Assembly (NCBI GenBank): GCA_000004985.1
Contig: GG738901.1
Reading direction: 5' to 3' (one strand)
From: Naegleria gruberi
Lineage: Eukaryota
Length of the DNA stretch: 64,000 bases
Shown here: in pieces, positions 10,124-17,570 of the stretch
How positions within the stretch are numbered: position 1 is the stretch's first letter
Layout: the number at the start of each line of letters is the position of its first letter
Program-made: the position numbers and the translations under genes
Notes under the pieces: generated by a model
Databases searched by the model: none
Told to the model about the DNA's origin: nothing
Seen by the model: the letters and a program-made list of their open reading frames with translations, nothing else

Positions 10124-10759
10124 ATGGCTATTAAAGTTTATGGATATGCTGCAGCACTTTGCACTCAACGTGTTTTGGCAACATTGAAGGAAAAACAATT
10201 GGATTACGAATTGATTGTTGTTAATTTGGCCTCTGGAGAACAAAAGCAAGCTCCTTACATTGAAAAACAACCTTTTGGAGTGATTCCAGTTCTTGAAGAT
10301 GGTGAATTCACTATTTATGAATCACGTGCTATCTGTAGATATTTGGAAAACAAGTACAAGACCAGTGGAAATCAACTCATTCCAACCAATCCTGAAGAAT
10401 TGGGTTTGTTCGAACAAGGTGCTTCTATTGAAACTTCCTATTGGGATCCAAATGCTTCTGCTATTTTATTTGAAAAAATTTTCAAGGCCATGAAGGGTTT
10501 AGGTGAAGCCGATGAATCAAGAGTTAAGGTTGCAAGTGAAAAATTAGCTCAATATTTGGATGTTTACGAAAAGATTTTGAGCAAACAAGAATATATTGGT
10601 GGAAATCAATTTACTCTTGCTGATTTGTTCCATCTTCCTTATGGAAGTCTCTTGTTCGTGCCTCAAGTTAATTTTGGTCATTTGTTATTGGAACGTCCAC
10701 ATGTTAAAACTTGGTGGGAAAAGATTACTTCTAGACCTGCATGGCAAGAAGTTGCTTAA
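10124..10759 (+). CDS. Glutathione S-transferase
   Basis: MAIKVYGYAAALCTQRVLATLKEKQLDYELIVVNLASGEQKQAPYIEKQPFGVIPVLEDGEFTIYESRAICRYL. This is a thioredoxin-fold GST N-domain with the conserved cis-Pro/ESRAI motif, followed by a helical C-domain. Single exon. Confidence 0.85.
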   Translation: MAIKVYGYAAALCTQRVLATLKEKQLDYELIVVNLASGEQKQAPYIEKQPFGVIPVLEDGEFTIYESRAICRYLENKYKTSGNQLIPTNPEELGLFEQGASIETSYWDPNASAILFEKIFKAMKGLGEADESRVKVASEKLAQYLDVYEKILSKQEYIGGNQFTLADLFHLPYGSLLFVPQVNFGHLLLERPHVKTWWEKITSRPAWQEVA

Positions 10760-11093: not shown

Positions 11094-13120
11094 TTAATAA
11101 TGTCTTTGTTGACCACTCCAAAAGGTACAACTAGGTCTGAAATCTTCTTGTTGTGCATACATTTGACATCCCTTAAATGCCTCCTTTTCCATAGCTGTAA
11201 TTATTGAAGTATTTGGTAAGACTTTTGTAATTGTTGTAATCCAATTTTCTTCCGGCTTAACAACTATCACAGGAGTATTCGTGGAAACTAGCAATTGGTT
11301 AAGAGATTTTTTAAGCTCCTTTTCTAATGAATTCACAATGCAACTATCTCCATCAAATGATTGATAGTTGGCAACCTTACTAATGGTGATATGTACATCC
11401 TTCTCTATAACAACACAATTTGGAATGTTATGGTAATAAGCTATCATTACATGTCTTGATATGAAGCAAACAGCTGGTACTTGAGTATTGAGAGTCACAT
11501 TAATGAACTGTGCAAAGTTCCTCTTTTTGAGAAGGTAGGGTGGGATTGAAATTAACAGTGGATGCCTTGGTGAGATAACTATTTGATCACAAATTTTGGA
11601 AAAGAATGTTCCAACATTAAGTTCATGGATATGTCGATAATCGTCATCAGGATCATTTAGATAATCAAATACAGACCCTTGATGGGATCCTATTTTACCA
11701 ATCATAGCATCAGAGTAACTGTAAAAATTAAAGCTATAATTGAGGTGTTAATATTAGTGAATGAAATTAAGATTACTTACTGAACACCACTGTTTCTGCC
11801 AACGTATGGTTCCACTGTGTTTGGTGTTTCAACATTGAAAAGGCCATAGGTTGCCATCTCACTTGTAAAATCGATGCAAATAGCTTTGAAAGAATGTTCT
11901 GTGAAATTTCGAACTCTGACATGATGATACCAATCAATAGGTATGCCACTTTCACATAATTTACGGAAAGTGGTGCCATTCCAATATTTTTGATAGACTG
12001 ATTTCCAAATAATTGGTGATCGTGCAAGTTGATTCAAATATCTATTCAATGGTAAAACTATTGAGCATATTTCACTCTCCTTAAGAAAAGAAAATACGGT
12101 GAAGATAATCTCTTCTGGAAGAATTGTCAAATTGTTTTGCTCGATATTCTCTACAAGACCCTCTGGAATAAAGTAGTGTCTATTCAAAAGATATTCAAAG
12201 GTCTTTCCACTATCAACTAGCATCTGTTGTCCAGCTAAATAACTTTCTGAAGCAGCATAAACATCTCCATTCTTTTCCAATCTTTCGCTCTCTTTGAATA
12301 ATTGGCCAATTTTTTGATATGCCTCTGATTGCTCGAATTTTTCATCTCTTGGAATTGATAAAGAATCAACTCTGAGATACATAATTTCAGTTCTCAAAAT
12401 ATACTTGGTTCCTTTTGTTACAGGACAACCTTCATGATAAAAATCCTGATTGAAAAGAGCCAATTGACCCAATGATGGTTTTAAGGTATGCAAGAGACTG
12501 TATTCTTCAAAGTCAGAGTCTGTCTTTGTTGGATCATTGTAAAATCTTGTTTCTCCCCCTTTAAAATCCTGATTCAGATAGATCAGTAATGTGTAAATAC
12601 TTCTCTCATGCTCACTCCTTCTGAATTGACCATCAGTGTGTATTTTGAAATACTCTCCTGGTTCATACTTGCTTAATCTCATCATTTCATTAATTCCACA
12701 AGCTTTCCATTCACCTCTGCTATCCAAACCATAAGGAGTAATCAATTTTCCAATAGCATCTAAATCAATCGTCTCTTTGAGACGTTCAAATATTAGTTTT
12801 GCAAACTCCTTATCAGTAATCAGCTCCCTAGAAGCATTTCTATACTCCTTCGGATATTCATCTTCCAGGTTCTTAAAATCATTACACCTCTTGATCATAT
12901 CATTACACTCTTCACTGGTAAAAAAGTTCGGAATGGCCATCAATCTGTTCATACAAGTCTGATGGATTGGATGTTTTACTTTCGACAGCTTGGTCTCAAA
13001 TGATCGGGATGAAAATTGAACAATTTCATGGACTGGCAAAAGATCGCCTGGCTCAATAATAGAAAACTTTGTCTTGTGGCGAATATCGCGTTCCTTTCCC
13101 CTCGCATGTTTGTTTCCCAT
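11094..13120 (-). CDS. Prolyl-4-hydroxylase-like 2OG-Fe(II) oxygenase fused to an F-box domain, plus a C-terminal ~200-aa extension (2 exons)
   Basis: N-terminus MGNKHARGK could be a myristoylation site. The P4H core is ...YFKIHTDGQF (HxD)...IYTLLIYLNQDFKGGETRFY...FYHEGCPVTKGTKYILRTEIMY (distal His plus 2OG-binding K/R). The F-box reads LPEEIIFTVFSFLKESEICSIVLPLNRYLNQLARSPIIWKSVY. The ORF ends GVQ followed directly by GTAAGTAATC. The intron spans about 11718-11779 and ends TTTTACAG. Translation continues in frame through the 11705..11094 ORF (SYSDAMIGKIGSHQG...). Confidence 0.7.
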
Positions 13121-13883: not shown

Positions 13884-16187
13884 TTATTGATTAGCAAAGA
13901 ATTTGTAGTACTTTTGATTTGGATTCTTTGATTTAAATTTGTACTCATCATAAATGTTGTGTCTCAAAACATATTGAGGCATGTAGTTCTTCTTACTAAA
14001 CAAAGCTTGTTGTTGTTGAAGAGATAATTCACCAGTATTGGTTGCATCGATGAATGTGAAATTGCCAGAGGATTGTTCCATATTTTGCATTTGCATTGGT
14101 TGTTGCATATTTTGCATTGTGTCATTAGTTTGAGGTGACATGGAGGCAATTGGAGAAGATTTCTTTCTAGCTTGTTTTTCAAATGCAACTTGAATATTAC
14201 CATCACTTTGACTTCTCTTCTTTCTATTTTCAACATTTGTAATCTTGGCAATGTTTGGTGAAACAACAGTTGCGTTTTGTTTAACATTTCCTTCATCATC
14301 ACAAGAGTAGGTATGGAATTGAAGTGAATTAGTTCTCTTATTTGAGGCTGCCATTTGCTTTCCAATGAGTACATTAGCAGATCCAGATCTAGATCTTGAA
14401 TTACTCCTAGTAGATGATGCAGTTGACATTGCATTAGAAATATAGGAAGTTGTAGGACTTCCATATGCAGTATTGTTAAAAGTATTTGGAGAGGATGAAT
14501 TTGACATGGATGGTGAAGGAATCATCATTCCCATAACAGGAGATGATGGTTCTGACATGGTATACAAATTTCCAACTCCATTTCCTCTATTAAATTGTTG
14601 TTGTTGTTGTTGTTGGATAACAATACCATTATTATTCATCATTTGATTATTAGTTGTCGCGCCATTAAACATGATTTGATTATTATTAGGGAAATTAACC
14701 ATAGTAGTGTTGGTATTTGGTGAATTATTACCACTGCCACTACCACCATTATTGTTAAACATGATATTTCCACCACCCATCAAATTACTGTTATTTGAAC
14801 TACTTCTGACATGAATATGTTTTTGTAAATTAATTGAACCTGATTGAGTAGAATCAATACTCATAACAGAAGAGGTAGAATTTGAACGCTTTTGTCTACC
14901 TGCCATTCTAATCAAGTTATTTTCAACCTTCTTAACTGGGAATTGATTATTGACAACCATTGAAGGTGATTGTGGAGTACCAACACTCATACTCATATTT
15001 TGGAATGGATTGATAAAAGTAGTTGGTGAGTTATTACCACTATTTGGAGTTGAAATCATATTATTATTATTAGTAGAAATAGCCATATTATGTTGTTGGG
15101 TATTCACCATCATGTTTTGTTGTTGCAATTGTTGCTGAATGGATAATTGATTCATAGATTGCATCATCATTAACATATCAACAGAATTATTAGAAGCAGT
15201 ATTATTAGCAGCATTATTAAAACCAACCAATTGTTGTGGTTGATGATAATTAGTTGCCTGTTGATGATTTACCATCATATTAGCAGCTGCATTATTAAAA
15301 CCATTATTATTATTAATATTAATATTATTCATATTATTATTCTGTTGTTGTTGTTGATCAAAGCCTTGAATTGGTAACATGACCAATTGGCCATTATTAT
15401 TATTACCATTGTTATTCGTACCAACTAGATGATTCTCTTGCTTGACTACAAAGTTTGTTTGCAAATTTCCAATCACTTGATGTCCGAGTGGACCAAACGA
15501 AATAACGCCATTATTATTATTATTATTAATAATATTGCTGTGTTGTGCGCCTACTACAGTGTTGTTTGCGTTATTGTTGTTGATAATATTATTGCGTTGT
15601 TGTTGTTGTGCTTGTTGATGATGATGAACGTTGGAAACTTGCAAACCGAGAGAGGAATCATAATCACTCAAGGCTTGATCAATTTCCTTATAGTAGAAAT
15701 CATTAGGGTTTTCATGTTGTTGTTGTTGTTGGTGGTGATGAGAAGCAATATTGAAATTATTGGCAGAGCCTTCATCGAGCAAGGAAGTAGTACTACTACC
15801 TTGTTGTGAATCGAATGGATGAGCAGAATTTCCCACCTGTTGTTGTTGTTGTTGACTTGCTGTGGAGGTTGAATAGAGTGAATGTTGTTGTGGTTGATTG
15901 TGTGAAGTATTGCTATAATTATTATTAACATGAGTTGGTTGGTCAAAGGAACCGAAAGTGTTGGAATCCAAATAGGAAACACCATTACCAGTGGCAGATT
16001 GTGAAAATTGAGAGTTTGTTGGATTATTAATGAAAGAATTCATGAGGTCATGTGTGGAAGTTTGTGAGAGGAGTAATTCAAAGTCATCAGTGTCAATAAA
16101 GTCATCTTCAATATTGTTGTTATCATTGAGAGAGGAAACAACCGACGAAGAAACACCAAGAGAACGATAAGGATCTTCGTTAGACAT
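13884..16187 (-). CDS. N/Q/S-rich low-complexity protein (767 aa), possibly a nuclear regulator
   Basis: Long ORF with poly-Q, poly-N and poly-H-Q runs and an S-rich tail. I recognise no folded domain. The codon periodicity is maintained throughout. Confidence 0.5.
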   Translation of the reverse strand: MSNEDPYRSLGVSSSVVSSLNDNNNIEDDFIDTDDFELLLSQTSTHDLMNSFINNPTNSQFSQSATGNGVSYLDSNTFGSFDQPTHVNNNYSNTSHNQPQQHSLYSTSTASQQQQQQVGNSAHPFDSQQGSSTTSLLDEGSANNFNIASHHHQQQQQHENPNDFYYKEIDQALSDYDSSLGLQVSNVHHHQQAQQQQRNNIINNNNANNTVVGAQHSNIINNNNNNGVISFGPLGHQVIGNLQTNFVVKQENHLVGTNNNGNNNNGQLVMLPIQGFDQQQQQNNNMNNININNNNGFNNAAANMMVNHQQATNYHQPQQLVGFNNAANNTASNNSVDMLMMMQSMNQLSIQQQLQQQNMMVNTQQHNMAISTNNNNMISTPNSGNNSPTTFINPFQNMSMSVGTPQSPSMVVNNQFPVKKVENNLIRMAGRQKRSNSTSSVMSIDSTQSGSINLQKHIHVRSSSNNSNLMGGGNIMFNNNGGSGSGNNSPNTNTTMVNFPNNNQIMFNGATTNNQMMNNNGIVIQQQQQQQFNRGNGVGNLYTMSEPSSPVMGMMIPSPSMSNSSSPNTFNNTAYGSPTTSYISNAMSTASSTRSNSRSRSGSANVLIGKQMAASNKRTNSLQFHTYSCDDEGNVKQNATVVSPNIAKITNVENRKKRSQSDGNIQVAFEKQARKKSSPIASMSPQTNDTMQNMQQPMQMQNMEQSSGNFTFIDATNTGELSLQQQQALFSKKNYMPQYVLRHNIYDEYKFKSKNPNQKYYKFFANQ

Positions 16188-16703: not shown

Positions 16704-17570
16704 CTACTGTAGATTCAAGCCCGTAGTTGATTGTTGGTTTAGTGCTGGATAATAAAGTAAATGTCTAAAGGTTAGGGAAATTCTTCTTGGAAACCTCTTT
16801 TTTCTTTTAATTCCATGTTTCCAGTCATATCTTCCTTCCTTAGACATAATCAATAAAGAGTTTGGTTCCAATGTTAATTTAAATTTCATATCTGGATTGT
16901 TTGCACTCTCAAAATCCATTTGGCATTCGTTCACCAATGAAAGACAAACTATTTCCTTTCCAAATACCTTTACATTATCTACATGTTTGGCAATTGACTG
17001 CTCATAATATTCCTGAACTAAACATTGATTAATTCTATCATCTATGACTTGTTCTAGAGATGGTGCTTCCCATTCAAAAGAGGAAGGATCATTTGAATTT
17101 TCATAATACTCATCCAACCCTTTAATTTCCTCATCTTTCATAAAGTTAATTCCGAAATCCCTTTCAACAGGCTTTGAAACAAACGACAATTCATCAAGCA
17201 AGAGTGGTGATTTTCTCATTGGTTGCAAGCCTGGATGAAATAATTTAGTAAAATAGTAGTGAATTCCATAGCATTGAATTCTTCGGGAAAGTAGTGAATC
17301 ATACCACGAATGATTATCGAGAGTACTTAATAATTTACTTCCCTCATCATGGGAAAGATAATTCGGAACATAAATTAATCCTTCAATTTCTTCACCAGTA
17401 ATTGGATTCTTCACATAACCTGATGAATTACCAGAGGCAGTTGGTACATGTTGATCCGACACATCACTAGTTGAATAACAAGCTTTTTGTACTATTGATA
17501 ATAGAGAAGGAAGGCTTTGAAAATTATTTCTCTTGTTGTGCATGAGAGCGGGAAGGAATTTTTTGAGCAT
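16704..17570 (-). CDS. AlkB-family (ALKBH7-like) 2OG-Fe(II) oxygenase, probably mitochondrial
   Basis: The N-terminus is basic and amphipathic, like a mitochondrial presequence. I see SRRIQCYG, a characteristic AlkB-homolog motif. The HxD is KHVDNVKVFG, the distal His is DWKHGI and the Arg is RISLTFRH. Confidence 0.6.
   Translation of the reverse strand: MLKKFLPALMHNKRNNFQSLPSLLSIVQKACYSTSDVSDQHVPTASGNSSGYVKNPITGEEIEGLIYVPNYLSHDEGSKLLSTLDNHSWYDSLLSRRIQCYGIHYYFTKLFHPGLQPMRKSPLLLDELSFVSKPVERDFGINFMKDEEIKGLDEYYENSNDPSSFEWEAPSLEQVIDDRINQCLVQEYYEQSIAKHVDNVKVFGKEIVCLSLVNECQMDFESANNPDMKFKLTLEPNSLLIMSKEGRYDWKHGIKRKKRFPRRISLTFRHLLYYPALNQQSTTGLNLQ

What the first reader, a model, noticed from the sequence alone, without database searches (positions are those of the whole stretch)
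11094..13120. Prolyl-4-hydroxylase-like 2OG oxygenase fused in one polypeptide to a canonical F-box, with an extra spliced C-terminal domain
The sequence shows a complete P4H-type double-stranded beta-helix core (HxD ... H ... K/R). It is followed, in the same ORF, by a textbook F-box (LPEEIIFTVFSFLKESEICSIVLPLNRYLNQLARSPIIWK). The ORF ends GVQ directly at GTAAGT, and a roughly 60-nt intron joins it in frame to a further ~200-aa region of unknown fold. An N-terminal MGNKHAR suggests myristoylation. By established knowledge, cytoplasmic P4H enzymes (PhyA) hydroxylate Skp1, the adaptor that binds F-box proteins, in Dictyostelium and Toxoplasma. A hydroxylase that itself carries an F-box would dock onto Skp1 or an SCF complex. 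I do not recall this architecture being described. This is inference from the sequence.
Basis: partly seen in the sequence, partly recalled or inferred. Interest (0 to 1): 0.75.

Follow-up and report, generated by a model that had tools for sequence, protein, structure and literature searches.

The report
Hydroxylase, F-box and actin-fold fusion protein
This Naegleria-type amoeba gene encodes one protein that joins a prolyl-hydroxylase-like oxygen-using enzyme, an F-box (the handle that plugs proteins into SCF ubiquitin ligases) and a stripped-down actin-fold domain; the same three-part design is conserved but unstudied in many amoebae, including Dictyostelium.

Summary
A two-exon gene lies on the minus strand at 11094-13120. 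The junction reads ...SGV-H-YSD, not GVQ. The 654-aa product hits Pfam 2OG-FeII_Oxy_3 (E 8e-14) and F-box-like (26.2 bits; cut-off 24.3). H161, D163, H229 and K239 are intact.

The "unknown" C-terminal region is a degenerate actin fold. A family profile anchored on it matches beta-actin (hhalign 98.9%, E 3e-17). A model of the N. lovaniensis orthologue matches only actins and Arps. The window's copy lacks subdomain 4 and the nucleotide-binding glycine loops.

The architecture is not unique. Oxygenase-F-box-actin proteins occur in Naegleria, Willaertia, all sampled dictyostelids (including D. discoideum), Physarum and other amoebae. All are annotated only as hypothetical or domain-containing proteins, and I found no paper describing them.

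Most likely it is a Skp1-docked, catalytically competent protein hydroxylase whose actin-fold domain selects the partner. This resembles the F-box/JmjC dioxygenases JcdI and KDM2. The function is inferred, not shown. I rate it a new variant of a known kind, of moderate to high interest.

The parts
11094..13120 (-). Whole coding region of the gene: two exons and one intron, giving a 654-aa product
   Evidence: ORF list and splice search. tblastn of the spliced product finds only this locus in the window.
11781..13120 (-). Exon 1 (aa 1-446 plus the first two bases of His447). It encodes the oxygenase, the linker, the F-box and the first beta-strands of the actin fold.
   Evidence: It is 99.0% identical without indels to contig L001.
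11719..11780 (-). Intron of 62 nt, GTAAGT...TTACAG, phase 2. The TAA inside GTAAGT is the stop codon of the unspliced ORF.
   Evidence: It is the only in-frame GT..AG pair. The N. lovaniensis gene model has an intron in the same codon and phase.
11094..11718 (-). Exon 2 (last base of His447, aa 448-654, and the TAA stop at 11094-11096). It encodes the rest of the actin-fold domain.
   Evidence: It is 99.0% identical without indels to L001, with 3 synonymous and 3 non-synonymous differences. A 51%-identical exon-2 homologue, P0007, exists in another metagenome.
13115..13120 (-). Met1-Gly2 of MGNKHAR, a candidate N-myristoylation site
   Evidence: The sequence shows it directly. MGNKH[AS] is shared with N. 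gruberi P0002. Ten family proteins start with MG, several as MGxxxS/T. Not tested.
12368..13063 (-). Prolyl-hydroxylase-like 2OG/Fe(II) oxygenase domain (aa 20-251; Pfam core aa 148-242 = 12395-12679). Metal and 2OG ligands: H161 (12638-12640), D163 (12632-12634), H229 (12434-12436), K239 (12404-12406).
   Evidence: Pfam E 8.4e-14. AF2 pLDDT is 85-96 over the domain. Foldseek matches PiuC, vCPH, PPHD, DdPhyA, BaP4H and PHD2 at E 7e-10 to 1e-7. The four ligands are invariant in 60 of 60 family members.
12209..12343 (-). Conserved helical hairpin linker (aa 260-304) between the oxygenase and the F-box
   Evidence: AF2 predicts helices 266-283 and 287-304. Y268, S278, E282, G285, Y294, Q298, L301 and G305 are invariant among the Naegleria paralogues. 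Profile matches in distant members run through this region in one stretch.
11990..12124 (-). F-box (aa 333-377)
   Evidence: PF12937 at 26.2 bits against a cut-off of 24.3. The family best is E 3.8e-15, with 39 of 60 members hitting F-box-like and 28 of 60 hitting F-box. The helices are predicted at pLDDT 75-86. The LPxE...L...W pattern aligns with Skp2, Fbxw7, bTrCP and Cdc4.
11097..11896 (-). Degenerate actin-fold domain (aa ~409-654, interrupted by the intron). Subdomains 1 and 3 and part of 2 are kept. Subdomain 4 and the phosphate- and adenine-binding glycine loops are lost.
   Evidence: An iterated profile seeded here reaches ACTB at E 5e-7, then 2e-26. hhalign of a 50-sequence family alignment against ACTB gives 98.9% probability, E 2.8e-17. 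The orthologue P0003 hits Pfam Actin at 28.3 bits, and its model matches only actins and Arps. The window copy alone has no Pfam Actin hit.

Best explanation
The locus is a real two-exon gene of a Naegleria-like heterolobosean amoeba. It encodes a member of a conserved, uncharacterised three-domain family: an N-terminal prolyl-hydroxylase-like Fe(II)/2-oxoglutarate oxygenase, a conserved helical hairpin, an F-box, and a C-terminal actin-fold domain. Shown here: the gene structure, the three domains, the intact catalytic ligands, and the wide conservation of the domain order. Inferred: (1) the F-box docks the protein on Skp1; (2) the oxygenase is active and hydroxylates a protein side chain, most likely proline, using O2 and 2OG; (3) the actin-fold domain sits where F-box proteins carry their substrate-receptor domain and, in this copy, lacks the nucleotide-binding loops and subdomain 4, so it acts as a protein-protein interaction module that selects the partner or target rather than as a polymerising ATPase. 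The protein would therefore be a Skp1-associated, oxygen- and metabolite-dependent hydroxylase. It would work like the F-box dioxygenases JcdI/Fbxo13 and KDM2A/B. Skp1 association would either deliver the bound target to an SCF ligase or control the enzyme's own level. A Gly2 myristoyl anchor may place this copy at a membrane.
For: Gene model. Oxygenase: Pfam E 8e-14; confident AF2 model; the top PDB fold matches are mostly prolyl hydroxylases plus close 2OG-oxygenase relatives such as PiuC; H, D, H and K are invariant in 60 of 60 diverse members. F-box: above the Pfam cut-off, stronger in relatives, canonical motif. Actin fold: (30 of 60 members hit Pfam Actin, best 9e-36). Conserved domain order in Heterolobosea and Amoebozoa, including full-length transcripts from Physarum, Dracoamoeba, Stenamoeba and Pyxidicula. 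Precedent for an F-box dioxygenase that binds Skp1 through its F-box: JcdI/Fbxo13 (PMC9485057).
Against: There is no experimental or transcript evidence for this organism. The window's F-box score is only just above the Pfam cut-off. The window's own C-terminal domain has no Pfam Actin hit, and the narrow three-sequence clade profile gives only a weak hhalign match (probability 18%, E 1.4e-3). The actin assignment for this copy therefore rests on family bridging and on an orthologue model with mean pLDDT of only 57. The substrate, the residue modified and any Cul1 engagement are unknown. For JcdI the F-box was not needed for the overexpression phenotype (PMC9485057), so a classical SCF role cannot be assumed.
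Confidence: 0.6

Rival explanations
1. Self-contained oxygen-gated degradation module. The actin-fold domain binds a substrate, the in-cis hydroxylase writes hydroxyproline on it, and the F-box hands it to a Cul1-based SCF ligase for ubiquitination. This would put a PHD-like writer and the ligase receptor in one polypeptide.
For: The C-terminal position of the actin-fold domain matches that of substrate-receptor domains in F-box proteins (established knowledge, summarised in PMC9485057). The catalytic residues are invariant. The oxygenase-hairpin-F-box block is conserved as one unit.
Against: Nothing here shows Cul1 engagement or a substrate. Known enzyme-bearing F-box proteins often act outside classical SCF turnover: JcdI (PMC9485057) and KDM2B (from memory).
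Confidence: 0.25
2. One reading: the F-box tethers the hydroxylase to Skp1/SCF so that it hydroxylates Skp1 itself or another SCF subunit, as a PhyA-like activity built into an F-box protein.
For: Skp1 is a known substrate of a cytoplasmic P4H in Dictyostelium and Toxoplasma (PMC9485057). DdPhyA is among the structural neighbours (6t8m, E 4e-8).
Against: DdPhyA is no closer than PiuC, viral collagen P4H, bacterial EF-Tu P4H or PHD2. Sequence hits are to collagen-type or bacterial P4Hs. Dictyostelids have this family in addition to PhyA, so it is not a PhyA replacement. The idea leaves the conserved actin-fold domain unexplained. From memory, not checked here: the Skp1 target proline lies by the F-box-binding region, and F-box-bound Skp1 is a poor PhyA substrate.
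Confidence: 0.1
3. Cytoskeleton-directed enzyme. The actin-fold domain pairs with actin, an Arp or an actin-binding protein. This would target the hydroxylase and the Skp1 ligase to actin structures, or make actin itself the hydroxylation target, in crawling or phagocytic amoebae.
For: Every named organism carrying the family in my sample is an amoeboid protist. Most members keep the actin D-x-G and GG motifs. From memory: PHD3 hydroxylates non-muscle actin.
Against: The window's copy has lost subdomain 4 and the nucleotide loops, so filament-like contacts are doubtful. The taxon pattern comes from only about 30 named representatives. The Dictyostelium actin inventory paper does not list such a protein (PMC2441452).
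Confidence: 0.15
4. Annotation artefact: the oxygenase/F-box ORF and the downstream 203-codon ORF are separate genes, or the downstream ORF is non-coding. This is how the public N. gruberi model and the metagenome gene calls treat them.
For: P0001, P0002 and P0005 all end at the in-frame TAA. L001 has two separate gene calls.
Against: The actin fold starts in exon 1 (strands at aa 414-438) and continues in exon 2. N. lovaniensis has an intron in the same codon and phase. Intron-free transcripts from other amoebae encode the whole fusion. Exon 2 has no indels while the flanks have many.
Confidence: 0.03

Closest known systems
JcdI/Fbxo13 and JcdH of Dictyostelium (F-box plus JmjC dioxygenase; Boland et al. 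2022, PMC9485057)
   Same: A non-haem Fe(II)/2OG dioxygenase and an F-box in one polypeptide. It is conserved across protists, binds Skp1 through the F-box, and its activity depends on O2. It is the best functional analogy.
   Different: The JmjC catalytic domain belongs to a different 2OG-oxygenase branch and lies C-terminal to the F-box. Here a P4H-type domain lies N-terminal to the F-box. JcdI has no actin-fold domain.
KDM2A/KDM2B (FBXL11/FBXL10), animal JmjC histone demethylases with F-box and LRR (established knowledge)
   Same: A 2OG oxygenase N-terminal to an F-box, followed by a C-terminal protein-interaction domain. They associate with SKP1.
   Different: They have a JmjC rather than a P4H-type domain, LRRs rather than an actin fold, and are chromatin-directed through CXXC and PHD domains.
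PhyA, the Skp1 prolyl 4-hydroxylase of Dictyostelium and Toxoplasma (PDB 6t8m)
   Same: A cytoplasmic prolyl-hydroxylase-fold enzyme functionally tied to the Skp1/SCF system. It is a structural neighbour (E 4e-8).
   Different: PhyA is a stand-alone enzyme acting on Skp1 in trans, with no F-box and no actin fold. It is not closer than other P4Hs. Dictyostelids carry both.
Collagen-type, viral and bacterial P4Hs (PBCV-1 vCPH 5c5t, B. anthracis P4H 5hv0, P. putida PPHD 4j25) and PiuC
   Same: Same DSBH core. HxD...H with Lys at +10 binding 2OG. HEGCPVTKGTKYI aligns with HGGAPVTKGEKWI of BaP4H. These are the best fold matches.
   Different: Those are single-domain enzymes, or in animals are fused to a TPR-like peptide-binding domain. 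None carries an F-box or an actin fold.
Actin-related proteins, and actin-domain fusions such as Dictyostelium filactin (PMC2441452)
   Same: An actin (ASKHA) fold used as a module inside a larger protein. Divergent Arps likewise lose polymerisation and sometimes nucleotide binding.
   Different: The window's domain is about 245 aa against about 375. It lacks subdomain 4 and the glycine loops. It is fused to an F-box and an oxygenase, which the Dictyostelium actin inventory does not report.

Membership tests
Fe(II)/2-oxoglutarate oxygenases, prolyl-hydroxylase-like branch (Pfam PF13640 / SMART P4Hc) | Profile match above the curated cut-off | tested here: met
   PF13640 at 52.8 bits against a cut-off of 27, E 8.4e-14.
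Fe(II)/2-oxoglutarate oxygenases, prolyl-hydroxylase-like branch (Pfam PF13640 / SMART P4Hc) | HxD...H iron triad plus a basic residue binding the 2OG C5 carboxylate | tested here: met
   H161, D163, H229 and K239 (+10) are present. They are invariant in 60 of 60 family members.
Fe(II)/2-oxoglutarate oxygenases, prolyl-hydroxylase-like branch (Pfam PF13640 / SMART P4Hc) | Double-stranded beta-helix fold most similar to known prolyl hydroxylases | tested here: met
   The AF2 model of the window's exon 1 has pLDDT 85-96 in the domain. Foldseek matches PiuC, vCPH, PPHD, DdPhyA, BaP4H and PHD2 at E 7e-10 to 1e-7.
Fe(II)/2-oxoglutarate oxygenases, prolyl-hydroxylase-like branch (Pfam PF13640 / SMART P4Hc) | Prolyl 4-hydroxylase activity on a defined substrate | not testable with these tools
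   This needs an enzyme assay. The modified residue could be something other than proline.
F-box proteins | F-box profile match above the curated cut-off | tested here: met
   PF12937 at 26.2 bits against 24.3, a narrow margin. PF00646 is not hit by this copy. Relatives reach E 3.8e-15.
F-box proteins | LPxE start, hydrophobic core and trailing L/I-W in a three-helix bundle | tested here: met
   The alignment with Skp2, Fbxw7, bTrCP and Cdc4 keeps L334, P335, E337, the I/V-F-S-F-L stretch and I-W372. The helices are predicted at pLDDT 75-86.
F-box proteins | Binds Skp1 | not testable with these tools
   This needs a pull-down or co-expression experiment.
Actin / actin-related protein superfamily (Pfam PF00022) | Profile match above the curated cut-off | tested here: not met
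   The window's C-terminal region alone gives no Actin hit. The orthologue P0003 reaches 28.3 bits against 27 as an isolated domain and 24.8 bits full-length. Other family members reach E 9e-36.
Actin / actin-related protein superfamily (Pfam PF00022) | Homology to actin detectable by profile methods | tested here: met
   An iterated profile seeded with the window's domain, with actin excluded, hits ACTB at E 5e-7, then 2e-26. hhalign of the 50-sequence alignment gives 98.9% probability, E 2.8e-17. The narrow clade profile alone is weak.
Actin / actin-related protein superfamily (Pfam PF00022) | Actin (ASKHA) fold with four subdomains | tested here: inconclusive
Its mean pLDDT is 57, yet the top 50 PDB matches are all actins or Arps. 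The alignment shows subdomain 4 missing in the window's copy.
Actin / actin-related protein superfamily (Pfam PF00022) | Nucleotide-binding loops (DNGSG, DSGDG, SGGTT) | tested here: not met
   The window has DFTSE, EKDVH and VKPEE at those positions. Most other family members keep D-x-G and GG.
PhyA-type Skp1 prolyl hydroxylase | Specific (orthologous) relationship to PhyA/PHD rather than to other P4Hs | tested here: not met
   DdPhyA and PHD2 score no better than PiuC, vCPH or bacterial P4Hs. Sequence hits are to bacterial and viral collagen-type P4Hs.
PhyA-type Skp1 prolyl hydroxylase | Hydroxylates Skp1 | not testable with these tools
   This needs biochemistry.

The most novel reading that the evidence does not exclude
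A single polypeptide acts as a complete oxygen-gated switch for the amoeboid cytoskeleton. Its actin-fold domain captures actin, an Arp or an actin regulator. Its built-in prolyl hydroxylase marks that target in proportion to O2, 2OG and iron. Its F-box passes it to SCF for ubiquitination. This would be an ancient module shared by distantly related crawling amoebae (Heterolobosea, Amoebozoa and possibly Rhizaria), independent of the PhyA-Skp1 and PHD-HIF-VHL systems.
Probability: 0.15. Interest if true: 0.85.

Novelty: new variant of a known kind. Interest (0 to 1): 0.62.

Why it matters
F-box proteins that are themselves 2OG dioxygenases are rare and informative. JcdI in Dictyostelium and KDM2A/B in animals link oxygen and metabolite sensing to Skp1 complexes.

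This family adds a different enzyme class, P4H-type, which is the class used for O2 sensing by PHD and PhyA. It also adds an unprecedented receptor-position domain, an actin fold.

The family is conserved from Naegleria, whose genus includes the brain-eating N. fowleri, to Dictyostelium discoideum. In D. discoideum, knockouts, Skp1 interactomics and hypoxia phenotypes are routine, so the hypothesis can be tested directly.

The work also flags a likely annotation error. The N. gruberi model and the metagenome gene calls stop at the intron and miss the actin-fold exon.

Tried and rejected
1. The first word-indexed homology search returned only six Naegleria proteins and suggested a genus-restricted novelty. 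The exhaustive HMM search overturned this, with 538 representatives at E <= 1e-30.

2. The spliced 654-aa protein could not be submitted for structure prediction because it is not contiguous in the window. I modelled the exon 1 product and, separately, the orthologue's F-box plus C-terminal region. No full-length model or inter-domain geometry was obtained.

3. The orthologue's C-terminal model has low confidence (pLDDT 57). I use it only as supporting evidence.

4. A profile of the three closest C-terminal domains against PDB sequences gave only sub-threshold Arp4/Arp hits (E 0.06-0.4). hhalign of that narrow profile against actin was weak.

5. My home-made F-box HMM was too narrow and under-counted F-boxes, so I rely on the Pfam counts.

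6. N. gruberi genomic DNA could not be fetched, so its intron is only inferred from the truncated model.

7. The AFDB fold library was unavailable, so I obtained no UniProt names or D. discoideum DDB identifier.

8. Literature searches and reading of PMC9485057, its held supplement and PMC2441452 found no description of a P4H/F-box/actin protein. Subscription-only papers were not searchable.

9. There is no second paralogue and no conventional actin gene in the window.
Full report
**1. What is in the sequence**

The feature lies on the minus strand. A 447-codon ORF runs from the ATG at 13118-13120 to a TAA at 11777-11779. A 203-codon ORF follows at 11705-11094.

I tested every GT..AG pair around the ORF end. 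Only one keeps the frame open: donor CA|GTAAGT with its first intron base at 11780, and acceptor TTACAG| with its last intron base at 11719. The intron is therefore 62 nt and phase 2. The split codon is CA|T (His447), and the junction reads ...GRNSGV-H-YSDAMIGK.

The terminal "Q" plus stop exist only in the unspliced reading, because the TAA is part of GTAAGT. The spliced product is 654 aa and ends at the TAA at 11094-11096.

The window has 33.5% G+C. The closest named homologues are all from Naegleria, so the source is a Naegleria-like heterolobosean. The N. gruberi orthologue is 65% identical. A metagenome contig (L001, ENA ERZ929261) is about 98-99% identical and keeps the neighbouring GST gene.

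**2. Is the gene model real?**

Four lines of evidence support it.

- The N. lovaniensis gene model (P0003, locus L002) has an intron in the same His codon and the same phase: GGA CA|GTAGGT...AACAG|C TAT.
- Against L001, exon 1 and exon 2 are each 99.0% identical with no gaps. The 5' and 3' flanks are 87-89% identical with 33-44 gap columns. Differences are 6 synonymous and 6 non-synonymous in exon 1, and 3 and 3 in exon 2. This gives dN/dS of about 0.25 in both, on small counts.
- The C-terminus DFRPSCTFWSGQ aligns with DFRSKCTFWPGKE at the ends of the N. lovaniensis and N. fowleri proteins, so 11094 is the true end.
- The actin fold starts in exon 1 and continues in exon 2. Trinity transcripts from Physarum, Dracoamoeba, Stenamoeba and Pyxidicula encode fused proteins. 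Those from Physarum and Dracoamoeba include a detectable actin-like domain.

The public N. gruberi model (451 aa) and the prokaryote-style metagenome gene calls stop at the intron's TAA. They probably miss the last exon. No RNA data for this organism were available.

**3. The three domains**

*Oxygenase.* Pfam PF13640 matches aa 148-242 (E 8.4e-14). There is an overlapping weak hit to the related Pox_C4_C10 family. PDB sequence hits are to Bacillus anthracis and PBCV-1 prolyl 4-hydroxylases, and HEGCPVTKGTKYI aligns to HGGAPVTKGEKWI.

The ligands H161, D163, H229 and K239 are present. They are invariant in all 60 diverse family members examined.

An AlphaFold2 model of the window's own exon 1 product, built from a 19-sequence alignment, has pLDDT 85-96 across the beta-helix core. 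Its best PDB fold matches are:

| Structure | PDB | Foldseek E |
|---|---|---|
| PiuC | 9qn0 | 7e-10 |
| Viral collagen P4H | 5c5t | 7e-9 |
| P. putida EF-Tu P4H | 4j25 | 2e-8 |
| Dictyostelium PhyA | 6t8m | 4e-8 |
| B. anthracis P4H | 5hv0 | 1e-7 |
| PHD2 | several | about 1e-7 |

. So the domain belongs to the prolyl-hydroxylase-like branch but to no particular subclass. Giant-virus oxygenases are structurally even closer (Yasminevirus, E 6e-18).

*Linker.* Two helices at aa 266-304 carry residues invariant among the Naegleria paralogues. Profile matches in distant relatives run through the oxygenase, hairpin and F-box as one stretch. This suggests a rigid unit.

*F-box.* PF12937 matches aa 333-377 at 26.2 bits against a cut-off of 24.3. 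Relatives score much better, up to E 3.8e-15. The LPxE...FSFL...IW pattern aligns with classical F-boxes. The helices are modelled at pLDDT 75-86.

The evidence that it is a divergent actin fold is as follows.

- The isolated C-terminal domain of the orthologue P0003 reaches the Pfam Actin cut-off (28.3 bits against 27, E 9e-7). N. fowleri reaches 23.3 bits. The window's copy alone has no hit.
- Of 60 family members, 30 hit Pfam Actin, the best at E 9e-36. Human beta-actin finds 30 members directly by phmmer, down to E 3e-19.
- A profile iterated from the window's aa 400-654, with actin never included, reaches beta-actin at E 5e-7 in round 3 and 2e-26 in round 5, with Z set to 10^6.
- hhalign of the 50-sequence alignment anchored on the window's residues gives 98.9% probability, E 2.8e-17. 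It aligns window aa 409-592 with actin residues 3-199. The narrow three-sequence profile is weak: 18% probability, E 1.4e-3, though in the right register.
- An AF2 model of the P0003 F-box plus C-terminal region is poor overall (pLDDT 57, with 60-90 in the second half). Even so, its top 50 PDB matches are all actins or Arps, with E about 1e-6.

The alignment shows that the window's clade (the window, P0007, P0003, P0004) keeps subdomains 1 and 3 and part of 2. The window's copy and P0007 lack the subdomain 4 segment (actin residues ~181-269) altogether; P0003 retains only a remnant. The nucleotide-binding loops are replaced: DNGSG becomes DFTSE, DSGDG becomes EKDVH, and SGGTT becomes VKPEE. 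Most other family members keep D-x-G and GG.

**4. Distribution**

The exhaustive HMM search found 7,612 representatives at E <= 1e-3, most of them plain P4H domains. It found 538 at E <= 1e-30. Many of the best are 650-1000 aa long and match from the oxygenase through the F-box.

Named members come from:

- Heterolobosea: several N. lovaniensis paralogues and Willaertia magna.
- Dictyostelids: Dictyostelium discoideum, D. purpureum, D. citrinum, D. firmibasis, Polysphondylium violaceum, Tieghemostelium, Cavenderia, Acytostelium and Heterostelium.
- Other Amoebozoa: Physarum, Dracoamoeba, Stenamoeba and Pyxidicula.
- One foraminiferan transcriptome (Bolivina), for which contamination is not excluded.

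. The order oxygenase, then F-box, then Actin is constant where all three are detected. Some members add NADAR, ankyrin, rhodanese, FYVE, Macro or a long STAND/TPR tail.

All are annotated as "hypothetical", "F-box domain-containing" or "Fe2OG dioxygenase domain-containing". Every named carrier in my sample of about 30 is an amoeboid protist. That sample is small, and absence elsewhere was not tested.

**5. How it most likely works**

Shown here: the gene model, the three domains, the intact catalytic ligands and the deep conservation of the architecture.

Inferred from established knowledge of the families:

- An intact F-box binds Skp1.
- A P4H-type oxygenase with a complete ligand set hydroxylates a protein residue using O2 and 2OG.
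- The domain C-terminal to an F-box normally selects the substrate or partner.

In this copy the actin fold cannot plausibly bind ATP or polymerise, so it is most simply a binding module. My best model is a Skp1-docked hydroxylase that depends on O2 and 2OG. It would work like JcdI/Fbxo13 of Dictyostelium, an F-box JmjC dioxygenase that binds Skp1 via its F-box and has a physiological O2 Km (PMC9485057), and like KDM2A/B.

Whether the complex ubiquitinates a hydroxylated target or mainly controls the enzyme's own level is open. I give the architecture and docking model 0.6 and the full "write-and-degrade" version about 0.25.

It leaves the actin fold unexplained, and dictyostelids have this family alongside PhyA.

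A cytoskeletal role is suggested only by the fold and the amoeboid distribution.

Myristoylation of Gly2 is plausible. MGNKH[AS] is shared with N. gruberi, and several relatives begin MGxxxS/T. It is untested.

**6. Comparison and novelty**

F-box proteins carrying a 2OG dioxygenase are a known kind (JcdI, JcdH, KDM2A/B). What differs here is the oxygenase class (P4H-type, N-terminal to the F-box) and the actin-fold domain in the receptor position.

I found no paper describing this combination. Neither the Dictyostelium actin inventory nor the main text of the expanded F-box list mentions it. The searchable library omits many subscription papers, and the full F-box table was not held.

The proteins are already in public databases with automatic domain labels, so the window's gene is one member of an existing but unstudied family. 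I rate it "new variant of a known kind".

**7. Verdict**

The architecture is real and interesting, but it is neither unique to this genome nor specifically linked to Skp1 hydroxylation.

Interest is 0.62. The family is conserved, experimentally tractable in D. discoideum and mechanistically suggestive, but its function is entirely inferred.

Noticed in passing
window 16704-17570 (-): A 288-aa ORF hits PF13532 2OG-FeII_Oxy_2 (AlkB-type) at E 5e-16. It is a second, unrelated 2OG oxygenase gene 3.6 kb from the finding.
   Followed up: no
window 10124-10759 (+): A glutathione S-transferase gene (GST_N and GST_C) is convergent with the 3' end of the finding. The same neighbour arrangement is kept in metagenome contig L001.
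   Followed up: partly
window 13884-16187 (-): A 767-aa ORF extremely rich in Asn and Gln runs has no Pfam match. It lies immediately upstream of the finding's start.
   Followed up: no
P0002 (N. gruberi), P0001 and P0005 (metagenome); L001 1606-3632: Public gene models of the orthologue and of paralogues end in ...Q exactly where the conserved phase-2 GTAAGT intron supplies a TAA. The actin-fold exon is therefore missing from, or called separately in, those annotations.
   Followed up: partly
BFVD entry A0A5K0U7Y8 (Yasminevirus), also Marseillevirus and Fadolivirus entries: Giant viruses of amoebae encode oxygenases structurally closer to this domain (E 6e-18, 26% identity) than any solved structure. 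This hints at gene exchange between amoebae and their viruses.
   Followed up: no
P0024 (D. purpureum, 2127 aa), P0016 (Pyxidicula, 974 aa), other members of alignment A6: Some family members add further domains. P0024 has a lipase_3/STAND NTPase/TPR tail after the actin fold. P0016 has a NADAR domain before the oxygenase. Ankyrin, rhodanese, FYVE and Macro domains appear elsewhere.
   Followed up: no
L002 5808-5857 (N. lovaniensis orthologue): The N. lovaniensis model has a second short intron (about 50 nt) inside the actin-fold region, where the window's gene reads straight through. Its protein also has a roughly 80-residue low-complexity insert in the oxygenase domain that the window's copy lacks.
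   Followed up: no
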